DNA of 13,965 bases from UHGV virus genome UHGV-0234484; one strand, 5' to 3'. The stretch is from a virus. Positions 380-4,831 of the stretch are shown piece by piece. The notes beneath the pieces were generated by a model. The model searched no databases. It was given only the letters and a program-made list of their open reading frames with translations, and was not told where the DNA came from. A program made the translations under genes and the position numbers. Each line of letters starts with the position of its first letter. The first letter of the stretch is position 1.

Positions 380-763
380 ATGCGTGATATTCAGATGGTT
401 CTTGAACGTTGGGGAGCGTGGGCGGCTAATAATCATGAAGATGTGACCTGGTCGTCCATTGCCGCCGGTTTTAAGGGATTAATTCCTTCAAAAGTAAAAT
501 CTCGCCCGCAATGTTGTGACGATGACGCGATGATCATTTGCGGGTGCATGGCCCGTCTGAAAAAGAACAACAGCGATTTACACGATTTATTAGTAGATTA
601 TTATGTATGTGGTATGACATTCATGTCACTGTCAAGTAAGCATTGCTGCTCGGATGGTTATATCGGGAAAAGGTTACAGAAGGCTGAGGGCATAATTGAA
701 GGGATGTTAATGGCATTAGATATCCGGTTAGATATGGATATCGTTGCTAATAATTCTAATTGA
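380..763 (+). CDS. quuD: late-gene antiterminator Q, small Q family (phage 82 / DLP12 QuuD-like), 127 aa
   Basis: ATG at 380 is preceded by a GGAGA Shine-Dalgarno at 369-373; the six-frame ORF begins at an upstream TTG at 365. The product has Cys-rich zinc-binding patches (CCDDD...CGC, KHCC) and sits between the nin region and the lysis cassette. Recognised from memory as the DLP12-type small Q; not confirmed by search. Confidence 0.75.
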
Positions 764-900
764 TATGCAATTGTTTACTAAAAGTTATTAAAAATGGGGC
801 GTGGAAACGCCCCCAAAATAAAGGGTAATATATAACAGAAGGTTTATATAGTAAGAAGCAAGGTAGTGCTTCTAAATGAAGTGGCTTGAGGGCTCCACTT
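764..900 (+). promoter_or_regulatory. candidate late promoter (pR') and Q-utilisation region downstream of Q
   Basis: AT-rich non-coding stretch immediately after Q and before a + strand hairpin/U-tract at 901-941. In lambdoid phages pR' and qut lie directly downstream of Q. I could not pin down exact -35/-10 hexamers by eye. Confidence 0.3.
787..814 (-). terminator. rho-independent terminator on the minus strand; likely 3' end of the nmpC / IpeX-like transcript
   Basis: Inverted repeat GGGGCG-TGGAAA-CGCCCC at 796-813. On the minus strand the hairpin is followed by AUUUUUAAUAA (complement of 787-795); on the + strand no U-tract follows it. Confidence 0.5.
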
Positions 901-951
901 ATATGTTGCGGAGGCAAAGCCTCCCGCAACATATCTTTTTCGTAAGTCAGA
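789..951 (-). ncRNA. ipeX: IpeX-like regulatory 3' UTR of the porin gene (inhibitor of porin expression)
   Basis: About 160 nt untranslated stretch between the nmpC stop (952) and the minus-strand terminator at 787-814, containing a long near-perfect inverted repeat at 901-934. Published work on DLP12 nmpC and PA-2 lc places ipeX in the UTR between the porin stop codon and its terminator. Positional and structural inference only. Confidence 0.4.
901..941 (+). terminator. hairpin plus U-tract on the + strand downstream of Q (tR'-like candidate)
   Basis: Inverted repeat ATATGTTGCGGAGGC / GCCTCCCGCAACATAT at 901-934 with one bulge, followed by CTTTTT at 935-940. The U-tract is on the + strand only. 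Confidence 0.4.
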
Positions 952-2034
952 TTAGAACTGATAAACCAGACCTACAGCGACGATGTCGTCGGTATCAATA
1001 CCAGCTGTTTTGGTAAACTTACTATCGTCAATTAAGTTGATTTTGTAATCAACAAAAGTGGACATGTTTTTATTAAAGTAGTAAGTAGCACCGACATCGA
1101 CATACTTGACTAAGTCTCGGTCACCATGAACACCAAGGTCTTTACCTTTTGACTGAAGGTAAGCAACAGATGGACGCAGACCGAAGTCAAACTGATATTG
1201 TGCTACTGCTTCAAAGTTTTGTGCTTTGTTTGCAATATGGTTATTACCAAAAACGGTCATATTCTGAGTTTCAGAATATGTGGTAGCCAGATAGATATTG
1301 TTCGCATCATATTTCAGGCCTGCAGCCCATACTTCCGCATTTTTGCCGGAGGCATTGAATTTGCTCTTACCATAGGCGACCTGACCGTCAGTGCGATCTG
1401 ATTTAGCATAGGTTGCACCCACGCCGAATCCTTCATACTCATAAGTAGTGGAGAAACCGAAACCATCACCATTGGCTTCAGTTACGTCAGTGCGGTCATT
1501 TTTACCCTGATACTGAGCAGCAAAGTTCAGGCCATCGACCAGACCAAAGAAGTCGTTGTTACGATAAGTTGCAACACCAGTAGTGCGACCAGTCATGAAC
1601 ACATCTGTTTGGGTCCAGGTATCACCACCGAATTCTGGCAGGACGTCAGTCCACGCACCGATGTCGTATGCTACACCGTAGTTACGGCCGTAATCGATTG
1701 AGCCGTAATCACCAAATTTCAGGCCTGCAAATGCAAGACGGGTTTTGTCTTTGGAAGAACCTTGAGATTCAGCACGGTTGCCTTTGAATTCATATTCCCA
1801 CTGACCGAAACCAGTCAGTTGATCGTTGATTTGGGTTTCACCTTTGAAGCCAAGACGGGCATAAGTAGTATCACCATCATCTGCATCATTAGAGGAGAAG
1901 TAGTGCTTGGCATTAACTTTCCCGTATAGATCCAGCTTGTTACTGTCTTTATTATAAATTTCAGCTGCCTGAGCAGACATCGCCATCAGTACTGATGCAG
2001 CTACAGCAGAAATTGCCACTGTTAATTTTTTCAT
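952..2034 (-). CDS. nmpC: outer-membrane general porin, OmpC/PhoE family (NmpC / Lc / OmpD-like), intact, 360 aa
   Basis: N-terminal signal peptide [23 protein letters not shown] then AEIYNKD; porin-like composition rich in G, Y, D, N; C-terminal ...VGLVYQF ending in Phe, as in beta-barrel OMPs. Sits between Q and the lysis genes, as nmpC does in DLP12. No IS interruption is visible. Confidence 0.85.
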
Positions 2035-2460
2035 TGTACGCCCTTTTTTTTGAACTATTATTAAAAAATGATGTCACTGCGCGATAAATATTCATCTAAT
2101 CAATGCGATTATTTCAAGATGTAAGTTTTAGTTTCTCATTTAATTTGTGAAGTAGATCTCTATTTTTATCTAAACCTTTTCTATCTAATCCTATTCATGG
2201 CTCTTGTTTGAACGAAAATAAATCTATTAGCTAATTTATATTAATGGCACTTATTTATAAGAGATCTATAATTCTTTAGCTTAATTTAAACAAACTAAAA
2301 ATAACATCGGAAATTATTCATTGGTTATTTGTTGAAGTTTTCTTATGTATTTGTGGTGGTGTTTTGAACACTCGGTGGCATTCTCACAAATATCATTTAG
2401 TAGTTTACGTACGTAAAAAATTGGTTATGCTGTTAAGAGTGGTTACTTCGTCACACAGCT
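2035..2460 (-). promoter_or_regulatory. AT-rich upstream regulatory region and promoter of the porin gene
   Basis: About 420 bp of very AT-rich non-coding DNA directly upstream of the nmpC start at 2034, with AAGGG about 6 nt before the ATG as an RBS. No ORF of 60 aa or more in any frame. Exact promoter elements not resolved. Confidence 0.4.
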
Positions 2461-3867: not shown

Positions 3868-4425
3868 ATGATACAGGATTGGTTAGATTACCAAAATCTC
3901 GAGACTGCTAAGTCAGCAGCGAGGGCCGCGTGGGAGTCTTTAGAATGGACGAAAATTTCAGCGATTGCCTCTTGGGTTTCTGTAGTGCTCTCTGCAATAA
4001 CCTCAGGCGTAGCTATCTACGCAATGGGTACTTGGAAATCACAAGAGAAAGTAAAAGCTAAACGTGAGATCAAAAAAGCAGCAGGTAAGCTGTATGTAGA
4101 AGTAGGGCTAATGCCACAAATATTCACAAGCAAGAATGTTACTAACGGTCAGGTTGTTTCCAAGTCACCTAATTTTGAAGTGTTGGCTAGCCAAAAAAAT
4201 CAAGGCTATATTGATGAATGGTTAATGCACGAAAAGTTATCGGAACTGTATTTACAGCTCAAATACTTGGGGTATGCCGTAGTTGATGATCTGACTAGCG
4301 CCCAAAAAGATGCGCTAAACGGTTTGGATACACATTTTCAAAATTATTATTCTTACACCGAAAGTAAGGTGAATTTTGAAAAATCTTTAAAGGATTTTTT
4401 GGATAAGATGGACATCTATAAATAG
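3868..4425 (+). CDS. hypothetical membrane-anchored protein, 185 aa, low-GC accessory (moron) gene
   Basis: Clean ORF in lower-GC, AT-rich sequence between the spanins and cos. Predicted single TM segment around residues 29-53 (ISAIASWVSVVLSAITSGVAIYAMG) followed by a Lys-rich stretch and a roughly 130-aa soluble domain. Followed by a terminator. I do not recognise the family. Confidence 0.6.
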   Translation: MIQDWLDYQNLETAKSAARAAWESLEWTKISAIASWVSVVLSAITSGVAIYAMGTWKSQEKVKAKREIKKAAGKLYVEVGLMPQIFTSKNVTNGQVVSKSPNFEVLASQKNQGYIDEWLMHEKLSELYLQLKYLGYAVVDDLTSAQKDALNGLDTHFQNYYSYTESKVNFEKSLKDFLDKMDIYK

Positions 4426-4504: not shown

Positions 4505-4831
4505 TTATATACACCAATGACATCTCTGGATGGTTGGCAGTCCTGTTAGTTGGCCTGCGGTGGACTCGGCCTCGTCAAGCGTAAGAACACATACTTTTTG
4601 GTATCGGCCAGTAGTAAAGCTGGCGTGATTTTTAGGACTGATTAATGGGTTGATTGATTTGCATGAGGCTCGATGAATCCGCGTAAATCTGGCATCACTT
4701 TTTCTGCCTTTCCCGCTGGCCGACTTAAGCAGATTAATAACGAATCCATCGGAATGGGTCGCTAGCCAACTCTTGTACATCGCTTCGCTATCAACATCCT
4801 GTATTTCACTGCTGAAAATAGTAATGCCCAT
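4505..4831 (-). CDS. hypothetical protein, 108 aa, convergent with the 185-aa ORF
   Basis: Minus-strand ORF with ATG at 4829-4831 and TAA at 4505-4507, preceded on its own strand by an AT-rich stretch and GGAAAAAAT before the ATG. Product ends ...QRCHWCI and contains HRASCKS. No recognisable family. It occupies the position where lambda carries bor, but the sequence is unrelated to Bor as I remember it. Confidence 0.45.
   Translation of the reverse strand: MGITIFSSEIQDVDSEAMYKSWLATHSDGFVINLLKSASGKGRKSDARFTRIHRASCKSINPLISPKNHASFTTGRYQKVCVLTLDEAESTAGQLTGLPTIQRCHWCI

What the first reader, a model, noticed from the sequence alone, without database searches (positions are those of the whole stretch)
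789..951. IpeX-like structured 3' UTR downstream of the phage porin gene
The porin gene does not terminate right after its stop codon. The minus-strand transcript would run about 160 nt through a long near-perfect inverted repeat (901-934) before reaching a canonical hairpin with U-tract at 787-814. This mirrors the published ipeX arrangement in DLP12 nmpC and phage PA-2 lc, where the UTR between the porin stop and its terminator inhibits OmpC/OmpF expression post-transcriptionally. A lysogen of this element would then both add a porin and suppress host porins.
Basis: partly seen in the sequence, partly recalled or inferred. Interest (0 to 1): 0.5.

Follow-up and report, generated by a model that had tools for sequence, protein, structure and literature searches.

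The report
IpeX small RNA after phage porin gene
The structured tail of this prophage's porin gene is a copy of the already known IpeX RNA, which shuts down the host's own porins, and its sequence matches the ribosome-binding site of the host ompC message, although published reviews say no such match exists.

Summary
The porin ORF (952-2034, minus strand) is followed by a 161-nt untranslated tail (951-791). The tail holds a bulged 15-bp hairpin (934-901), two more hairpins, and an intrinsic terminator (813-796 plus a U-run). The minus strand folds with z = -6.3.

The tail is about 93% identical over its full length to the DLP12 quuD-nmpC spacer and to the PA-2 lc 3' region, which are the two published ipeX loci. 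The gene order is also the same. It is therefore an IpeX allele and already known. About 46% of complete E. coli genomes carry the region.

Compensatory changes support HP1. All one-sided changes are G.U pairs on the minus-strand RNA only.

One new lead emerged. IpeX nt 108-136 (window 844-816) can form 24 bp with ompC -31..-7, covering the Shine-Dalgarno sequence. After correction for accessibility this scores -15.4 kcal/mol, better than all 98 control start regions. ompF scores -9.8; ompA and the phage porin score at background. This fits the reported specificity but contradicts reviews stating there is no complementarity. It is untested.

The parts
952..2034 (-). Phage porin gene, an Lc/NmpC-type porin of 360 aa. 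Its transcript carries the UTR.
   Evidence: ORF. Pfam Porin_1, E 1.9e-151. 91% amino-acid identity to PA-2 Lc.
791..951 (-). IpeX orthologue: the 161-nt 3' UTR from the base after the porin stop codon to the end of the terminator U-run.
   Evidence: About 93% identical over its full length to the DLP12 and PA-2 ipeX loci. Fold z = -6.3.
901..934 (-). HP1: a 15-bp G+C-rich stem with one bulge and a 3-nt loop.
   Evidence: Four base pairs show compensatory double changes across 34 variants, and 97.8% of cells are paired.
879..900 (-). HP2. Its apical loop holds CCCUCA, an anti-Shine-Dalgarno-like motif. The stem is 6 bp in this allele and 8 bp in the K-12 allele.
   Evidence: Folds. The loop is almost invariant in the alignment: its one change is C->U at the fifth position (CCCUCA->CCCUUA) in the E. 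albertii variant L106, so the CCCU core never varies. All 22 of 22 positions are identical in the most divergent lineage, L225.
852..875 (-). HP3: a 7-9 bp stem with a variable loop.
   Evidence: One compensatory pair and six G.U variants. The loop is expanded by 3 nt in L225.
816..844 (-). Proposed seed, IpeX nt 108-136 (AACCUUCUGUUAUAU-AUUAC-CCUUUAUUU). It is complementary to ompC -31..-7, including the Shine-Dalgarno sequence. Nt 111-131 are complementary to ompF -14..+9.
   Evidence: The + strand 816-848 aligns to the ompC leader with 0 of 500 shuffles as good. 27 of 30 and 28 of 30 positions are conserved in the two divergent lineages.
791..814 (-). Rho-independent terminator of the porin/IpeX transcript: stem 813-796, U-run 795-791.
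   Evidence: 99.6% of cells are paired across variants, and changes fall in the loop or give G.U pairs.
380..763 (+). Convergent Q antiterminator gene, giving the same context as quuD in DLP12.
   Evidence: Pfam Phage_antitermQ, E 2.4e-53. K-12 annotation.

Best explanation
Window 951-791 (minus strand) is an allele of IpeX, the known prophage-encoded regulatory RNA. IpeX forms the 3' end of the lambdoid porin (lc/nmpC-type) transcript and lowers the host porins OmpC and OmpF after transcription.

Shown here:
- It is homologous to the two loci where ipeX was defined.
- It has the same gene order.
- It has a conserved multi-hairpin architecture ending in an intrinsic terminator.
- Selection acts on the minus-strand RNA.

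Inferred mechanism: the weakly structured stretch between HP3 and the terminator (IpeX nt 108-136, window 844-816) acts as an antisense seed. It pairs with the ompC mRNA from -31 to -7 in a 15-bp helix over the Shine-Dalgarno sequence plus a 9-bp helix upstream. This would block 30S binding and so translation. A shorter, imperfect match (-14 to +9) would do the same on ompF.

The phage porin's own start region is not matched, so the lysogen would swap host porins for the phage porin. HP1-HP3 and the terminator would mainly stabilise the RNA.
For: Homology:
- The 188-nt spacer is 93.2% identical to PA-2 J02580 and to K-12 over 100% of its length. It is 99.5-100% identical to many lambdoid phages and prophages.
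- The three-way alignment has 96% mean column identity.
- The K-12 match lies exactly between quuD and the nmpC stop codon.

Structure:
- Fold z = -6.3 for the window and -8.0 for K-12, with the same architecture.
- Across 34 distinct variants, 96.7% of cells are paired.
- Five pairs show double-sided changes; 0 of 500 shuffles reach this.
- Every one-sided change is a G.U pair on the minus-strand RNA, which would be A.C on the other strand.

Seed:
- The hybrid with the ompC start region is -26.4 kcal/mol. None of 98 K-12 start regions, 6660 genomic windows or 2000 seed shuffles does as well.
- In a whole-molecule scan corrected for accessibility, ompC scores -15.4. The background mean is -4.1, sd 2.3, best -9.9 (z = -5.0).
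- In the same scan ompF scores -9.8 (1 of 98 as good), ompA -5.7 and the phage porin -5.6 (23 of 98 each).
- The MicF-ompF positive control scored with the same energy terms, for its single best duplex, gives hybrid -27.4 and total -18.1. The IpeX-ompC duplex is therefore of classical size.
- ompC -40..-1 is 100% identical in 5364 of 5426 complete E. coli genomes.
- The two divergent lineages, L225 and E. albertii L106, change seed C to U opposite G in ompC. Pairing is kept as G.U, with hybrids of -22.0 and -23.7.

Literature:
- IpeX is made as part of the porin transcript and reduces OmpC and OmpF (PMC12197685, PMC5069750, PMC7177473).
- It is described as Hfq-independent for its main target (PMC8313858). 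That is expected for a long duplex.
Against: No experiment was done on this allele.

Several reviews state that IpeX does not base-pair with ompC or ompF, or has no complementary sequence (PMC3617542, PMC10690425; PMC12197685 says this more weakly). They cite the original 2006 study, which I could not read here.

A hybrid-only scan of the whole RNA does not single out ompC: 4 of 98 controls do as well, because the G+C-rich stems give strong spurious hybrids. The signal depends on the accessibility correction or on restricting the scan to the unstructured stretch.

The Gumbel estimate for one window is 6.8e-4, which is not astronomically small. The ompF match is only suggestive (70 of 2000 shuffles; P about 0.013).

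Sequence diversity of the family is low, with most variants 93-100% identical, so conservation of the seed is weak evidence by itself.

Part of the seed is drawn into a weak A/U hairpin in the minimum-energy fold.
Confidence: 0.9

Rival explanations
1. It is IpeX, but it acts indirectly, as the literature says. It would titrate a protein or trigger an envelope response, for example, rather than pairing with ompC or ompF, and the complementarity would be fortuitous.
For: Reviews report no base pairing or no complementary sequence (PMC3617542; PMC10690425). The effect on ompC is described as Hfq-independent (PMC8313858). The hybrid-only whole-RNA scan is not discriminating.
Against: A 24-bp duplex falls exactly on the Shine-Dalgarno sequence of the one experimentally known main target. 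It beats all 98 control start regions in the accessibility-aware scan and all 2000 seed shuffles. The rank order ompC > ompF >> ompA matches the reported specificity. Seed changes in divergent lineages are wobble-preserving. Hfq independence is also expected for a long duplex.
Confidence: 0.3
2. The region is only a spacer holding convergent terminators for the Q transcript and the porin transcript. The hairpins would be there for termination and mRNA 3'-end stability, with no trans-acting role in this phage.
For: On the + strand HP1 is followed by C-TTTTT (936-940), so it looks like a terminator for rightward transcription (sequence). The 813-796 hairpin is a terminator for the porin transcript. 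Stacked hairpins protect 3' ends.
Against: The region is homologous to a sequence shown experimentally to repress OmpC/OmpF when expressed. Termination does not need HP2, HP3 or the conserved unstructured stretch. All one-sided stem changes are G.U only on the minus-strand RNA. A role in stabilisation does not exclude the trans role.
Confidence: 0.07
3. The conserved element is read on the + strand, either as a small protein (PA-2 'ORF1'; window ORF 876-1016) or as a late-promoter/qut element for Q.
For: The PA-2 record annotates ORF1 across this region. A 46-aa ORF exists at 876-1016 on the + strand. The region lies directly after Q.
Against: The ORF differs in length between PA-2 (69 aa) and the window (46 aa) and overlaps the porin gene antisense. 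No promoter-like site was found on the + strand in 764-951. Better late-promoter and terminator candidates lie at 2244-2272 and 2462-2483, next to the holin gene. G.U variants argue for the minus strand.
Confidence: 0.03

Closest known systems
IpeX (ipeX) of cryptic prophage DLP12 (downstream of nmpC) and of phage PA-2 (downstream of lc)
   Same: It is homologous: about 93% identity over the whole 3' UTR. It has the same position directly after the porin stop codon on the porin strand, and the same convergent Q gene. It has the same hairpins and terminator, and a similar length (161 nt here against the published 167 nt). The seed stretch is identical.
   Different: It is a distinct allele with 12-13 substitutions or indels. 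HP2 is shortened from 8 to 6 bp (CU->AG), the HP1 bulge is shifted, and HP3 loses one closing pair. Unlike K-12, the upstream porin gene is intact, with no IS5 insertion. This allele (>=99% identity) is in 640 complete E. coli genomes; the K-12-like allele is in about 1800.
MicF and MicC, the chromosomal antisense sRNAs that block the ompF and ompC start regions
   Same: The proposed mode of action is the same: an accessible stretch pairs across the Shine-Dalgarno region of a porin mRNA. The predicted IpeX-ompC duplex (hybrid -25.8, total -14.3) is of the same order as MicF-ompF computed the same way (hybrid -27.4, total -18.1).
   Different: There is no sequence homology and IpeX is not a member of these families. 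IpeX is phage-borne, is the 3' end of an mRNA rather than a free-standing gene, and has its seed internal, just before the terminator, rather than at the 5' end. Pairing has not been shown experimentally.
3'-UTR-derived sRNAs of enterobacteria (e.g. CpxQ, NarS, MalH, GlnZ)
   Same: The RNA shares its terminator with the parent mRNA, and the regulator is made whenever the upstream gene is transcribed. IpeX is reported to need processing from the longer transcript (PMC12197685).
   Different: No homology. The processing site and the role of RNase E were not tested here. The parent gene and its RNA are carried on a prophage accessory cassette.
DicF and other prophage-encoded sRNAs that regulate core-genome genes
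   Same: It is a horizontally acquired RNA that targets host core genes (PMC5069750).
   Different: It has different sequences, targets and genomic context.

Membership tests
IpeX (prophage porin 3'-UTR RNA) | Sequence homology to the DLP12 and PA-2 ipeX regions | tested here: met
   93.2% identity over 100% of the 188-nt spacer to J02580 (PA-2) and to K-12. Alignment.
IpeX (prophage porin 3'-UTR RNA) | Lies between the stop codon of an lc/nmpC-type porin gene and its Rho-independent terminator, on the porin strand | tested here: met
   Porin stop at 952-954, terminator at 813-791 on the minus strand. The K-12 match falls between quuD and the nmpC stop.
IpeX (prophage porin 3'-UTR RNA) | Lambdoid late-region context: Q antiterminator, convergent porin, lysis cassette | tested here: met
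   Pfam hits for Q, porin, P21 holin, lysozyme and Rz. Same order as DLP12.
IpeX (prophage porin 3'-UTR RNA) | Length of about 167 nt and a stable multi-hairpin fold | tested here: met
   161 nt from stop+1 to the U-run. z = -6.3 for the window and -8.0 for K-12. Covariation in HP1.
IpeX (prophage porin 3'-UTR RNA) | Expression lowers OmpC and OmpF after transcription, but not OmpA | not testable with these tools
   Only an in-silico correlate is available. Predicted pairing energies rank ompC, then ompF, with ompA at background.
IpeX (prophage porin 3'-UTR RNA) | Rfam covariance-model match | not testable with these tools
   No Rfam family matched at gathering score anywhere in the window. 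At E <= 10 in 600-1200 there were only chance hits. The library appears to hold no IpeX model.
Anti-Shine-Dalgarno base-pairing sRNAs (works like MicF/MicC) | An accessible stretch complementary to the target start region, beyond chance | tested here: met
   ompC scores -15.4 kcal/mol after accessibility correction, with 0 of 98 controls as good and z = -5.0. 0 of 2000 seed shuffles match the hybrid energy. ompF is borderline (1 of 98; 70 of 2000).
Anti-Shine-Dalgarno base-pairing sRNAs (works like MicF/MicC) | Regulation lost by seed mutation and restored by compensatory target mutation | not testable with these tools
   Requires experiment.

The most novel reading that the evidence does not exclude
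IpeX is not an 'indirect, non-pairing' regulator. It would be a conventional antisense RNA: its stretch AACCUUCUGUUAUAU...CCUUUAUUU forms a 24-bp duplex over the ompC Shine-Dalgarno region (-31..-7) and a weaker one on ompF (-14..+9), while sparing the phage porin's own start region. The long ompC duplex would explain Hfq independence, and the short ompF duplex would explain Hfq dependence. On the opposite strand the seed looks like a 33-nt copy of the ompC leader. That hints that the phage acquired its regulator by capturing an inverted porin-leader fragment, as has been suggested for micF.
Probability: 0.55. Interest if true: 0.55.

Novelty: already known. Interest (0 to 1): 0.35.

Why it matters
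As a genome feature it is ordinary. IpeX has been known since 2006, and this region is present in about 46% of complete E. coli genomes (2510 of 5426).

Recognising it still helps annotation. None of the phage or RefSeq records hit here annotate the RNA; 'annotated features under the match' was 'none' in nearly all rows. Lysogens of this phage family probably remodel the outer membrane by gaining an Lc-type porin and losing OmpC/OmpF. That affects phage receptor availability and antibiotic permeability.

The more useful outcome concerns mechanism. How IpeX works is still described as unexplained or non-pairing in reviews up to 2025. A concrete 24-bp duplex with the ompC ribosome-binding site now makes the question testable with a handful of point mutations.

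Tried and rejected
- Rfam at gathering score over the whole window, and at E <= 10 on 600-1200: nothing relevant, only chance hits such as sau-19 on HP1.
- The original IpeX paper could not be retrieved by DOI or by the PMC id I recalled. Statements about it rest on secondary papers and, where marked, on my memory.
- RNAduplex on full-length RNAs gave meaningless giant duplexes.
- A hybrid-only scan of the whole IpeX against control start regions did not discriminate, because the G+C-rich stems hybridise strongly in silico. I replaced it with an accessibility-corrected scan.
- Test of whether the + strand is a decayed porin 5' end: similarity to ompC is limited to 33 nt (816-848) and does not extend into the signal-peptide region. 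Similarity to ompF and to the phage porin leader is not significant.
- Search for IpeX downstream of related chromosomal porins in Salmonella, Citrobacter, Enterobacter, Klebsiella, Serratia and others: none found. It occurs only in E. coli and E. albertii.
- Search for a phage with the same Q 3' end but no porin, to define the cassette borders: none in the phage collection. Only the right border (~2408-2430) could be placed.
- HP4, the weak A/U hairpin from the minimum-energy fold, is not supported. Variation only breaks pairs and always falls in the 5' arm.
- A literature search for RIL-seq, CLASH or IntaRNA data on IpeX found nothing specific.

Full report
**1. What is there**

The window is the late region of a lambdoid prophage.
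- DUF968/HNH gene at 30-362.
- Q antiterminator at 380-763 (+), Pfam PF06530.
- A convergent porin gene at 952-2034 (-), Pfam Porin_1.
- P21-type holin at 2624-2839, followed by lysozyme, Rz, Nu1 and the large terminase.

The finding concerns the 188-nt spacer 764-951 between the Q stop and the porin stop.

The inverted repeat at 901-934 has perfect 11-nt arms. In the fold it forms a 15-bp stem with one bulge.

A minus-strand terminator hairpin lies at 813-796 (7 pairs, 6 G-C, 4-nt loop) and is followed by AUUUUUAAU.

From the base after the stop codon (951) to the end of the U-run (791) is 161 nt. The minus-strand RNA folds at -53.6 kcal/mol against -31.2 +/- 3.5 for shuffles (z = -6.3). The fold gives HP1 (934-901), HP2 (900-879), HP3 (875-852), a weak A/U hairpin and the terminator.

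**2. Identity**

The spacer is 93.2% identical over 100% of its length to the PA-2 lc record J02580 and to K-12 strains. It is 99.5-100% identical to many lambdoid phages and prophages.

In NC_000913.3 the match fills exactly the gap between quuD (ends 574339) and the nmpC stop (574529) in cryptic prophage DLP12. In PA-2 it abuts the lc stop. A three-way alignment has 96% mean column identity. The porin is 91% identical to Lc, with differences clustered in a few short stretches.

Papers held here describe IpeX as follows:
- It is a 167-nt RNA of DLP12/PA-2.
- It is made from the porin promoter as part of the porin transcript.
- It lowers OmpC and OmpF (PMC12197685, PMC5069750, PMC7177473, PMC10690425).

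The region is therefore an IpeX allele, not merely IpeX-like. Rfam has no matching family.

The spacer occurs in 2510 of 5426 complete E. coli genomes. In 640 of them it is at >=99% identity to this allele, and in about 1800 it is the K-12-like allele. RefSeq and phage records almost never annotate it.

**3. Comparative structure**

I collected loci with the porin protein and with an HP2 pattern from IMG/VR and from one genome per species. This gave 47 distinct spacers and 34 distinct IpeX cores (alignment A2).

IpeX was found only next to E. coli and E. albertii phage porins. It was not found downstream of chromosomal OmpD-like porins of other genera.

Two lineages are clearly divergent. One is L225, where Q is 86% and the porin 87% identical. 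The other is E. albertii L106.

Counting pairs on A2 gave these results:
- 96.7% of cells are paired.
- Five pairs carry changes on both sides, four of them in HP1; 0 of 500 shuffles reach this.
- Sliding the 3' partners drops pairing to 37-51%.
- Every one-sided change is a G.U pair on the minus-strand RNA (pairs 20-53, 32-42, 34-40, 54-75, 60-69, 83-101, 149-158). These would be A.C mismatches on the + strand, so selection acts on the minus-strand RNA.
- The weak A/U hairpin is not supported. It only loses pairs, and always through changes in its 5' arm.

**4. A mechanistic lead**

The stretch between HP3 and the terminator is the least structured conserved part of the RNA. Compared with real K-12 leaders, IpeX nt 108-122 (AACCUUCUGUUAUAU) pairs with ompC -21..-7 (AUAUAACAGAGGGUU). 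That helix has 15 contiguous pairs, one of them G.U, and covers the GAGGG Shine-Dalgarno sequence.

IpeX nt 128-136 (CCUUUAUUU) pairs with ompC -31..-23 (AAAUAAAGG). Together the two helices give 24 bp and a hybrid energy of -26.4 kcal/mol.

Controls for the seed stretch:
- 0 of 98 annotated K-12 start regions do as well (best -18.3).
- 0 of 6660 genomic 60-nt windows do as well (best -22.3).
- 0 of 2000 dinucleotide shuffles of the seed do as well.
- A Gumbel fit gives P of about 7e-4 per window.

Caveat: a hybrid-only scan of the entire RNA does not single out ompC. Four of 98 controls do as well, because the G+C-rich stems hybridise strongly in silico.

I therefore scanned the whole RNA with opening energies for both partners:

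| Target | Total energy (kcal/mol) | Controls as good (of 98) |
|---|---|---|
| ompC (IpeX 108-136 with -31..-7) | -15.4 | 0 |
| ompF (IpeX 111-131 with -14..+9) | -9.8 | 1 |
| ompA | -5.7 | 23 |
| Phage porin's own start region | -5.6 | 23 |

The background has mean -4.1, sd 2.3 and best -9.9, so ompC lies at z = -5.0.

The classical MicF-ompF pair scored with the same energy terms, for its single best duplex, gives hybrid -27.4 and total -18.1. The IpeX-ompC duplex evaluated the same way gives -25.8 and -14.3.

The target site ompC -40..-1 is 100% identical in 5364 of 5426 complete E. coli genomes.

All major alleles keep the seed (hybrid -26.4 to -26.7). The two divergent lineages each carry a C-to-U change opposite a G of ompC, which keeps pairing as G.U (L225 -22.0, L106 -23.7). 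In L225 the seed is 27/30 identical, against 23/34 for HP1 and 22/31 for linker plus HP3.

Seen from the other strand, window 816-848 aligns to ompC -31..-3 (0 of 500 shuffles as good). The similarity stops there.

**5. How this sits with the literature**

[quoted passage not shown] Others list it loosely among base-pairing sRNAs (PMC5069750, PMC7177473). No paper I could search shows a duplex.

The original paper was not retrievable. From memory, it reported four things:
- A post-transcriptional effect.
- A requirement for the ompC upstream untranslated region.
- No effect on OmpA.
- Hfq independence for ompC but not for ompF.

All four fit the predicted pairings: a long duplex on ompC, a short imperfect one on ompF, and none on ompA. 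This remains a prediction. I give it about 0.55.

**6. Rivals**

- Indirect action as stated in the literature (0.3).
- A mere convergent-terminator spacer (0.07). Homology to an experimentally active sequence and the strand-specific G.U pattern argue against it.
- A + strand ORF or promoter (0.03). The ORF is not conserved in length, and no promoter-like site was found in 764-951.

**7. Verdict**

The feature is a known RNA in a common prophage module, so novelty is 'already known' and intrinsic interest is low. The unexpected complementarity to the ompC ribosome-binding site is what raises the score. It turns a 20-year-old 'mechanism unknown' note into a simple mutational test.

Noticed in passing
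window 901-940, + strand: Read on the + strand, HP1 is followed by C-TTTTT (936-940), so it looks like an intrinsic terminator for the rightward Q transcript. The porin terminator lies further left (813-791). The two convergent transcripts would therefore overlap by about 145 nt. The Q-mRNA tail would be a perfect antisense of IpeX, a possible sponge during induction, and would carry an ompC-leader look-alike at 816-848.
   Followed up: partly
window 885-890 (HP2 loop), minus strand: The apical loop of HP2 reads CCCUCA, the complement of the GAGGG Shine-Dalgarno sequence. It changes in only one of the 34 variants (CCCUUA in E. albertii L106), and HP2 is 22/22 identical in the most divergent lineage L225. 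It may be a second, generic anti-Shine-Dalgarno contact. In the accessibility scan it was the best site for ompA and for the phage porin, though only at background energy.
   Followed up: partly
window 2244-2272 and 2462-2483, + strand: A promoter-like site (ATGGCA-17-TATAAT) and a terminator-like hairpin with a T-run lie about 140-380 nt upstream of the holin gene. Their spacing recalls the lambda pR'-6S RNA-tR' arrangement. Porin-less phages (cdtI, SfII, SfIV) share DNA with the window only from about 2408-2430 rightwards, which places the right border of the porin cassette there.
   Followed up: partly
window 952-2034 (porin), and L225 3927-5030: Differences from PA-2 Lc (91% identity) and from the L225 porin (87%) cluster in a few short stretches (about aa 181-190, 215-232, 263-268, 335-348). 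This pattern is expected for surface loops under diversifying selection. Porins 100% identical to the window's porin occur with both IpeX alleles in IMG/VR, so recombination separates the gene from its UTR.
   Followed up: no
L001 6530-8826 (K-12 DLP12): In K-12 the nmpC gene is split by IS5 only 58 bp upstream of its stop codon, so ipeX is cut off from the porin promoter there. A K-12 transcriptome preprint nevertheless detects IpeX and reports it repressed in starvation (PMC11230228). This suggests another promoter, possibly reading out of IS5. The window has the intact arrangement.
   Followed up: no
window 3868-4425 (+) and 4505-4831 (-): Two ORFs lie between the lysis cassette and the terminase genes. 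They are 185 aa and 108 aa and have no Pfam match. The second occupies the position of bor in DLP12 and lambda but did not hit the Bor family.
   Followed up: no
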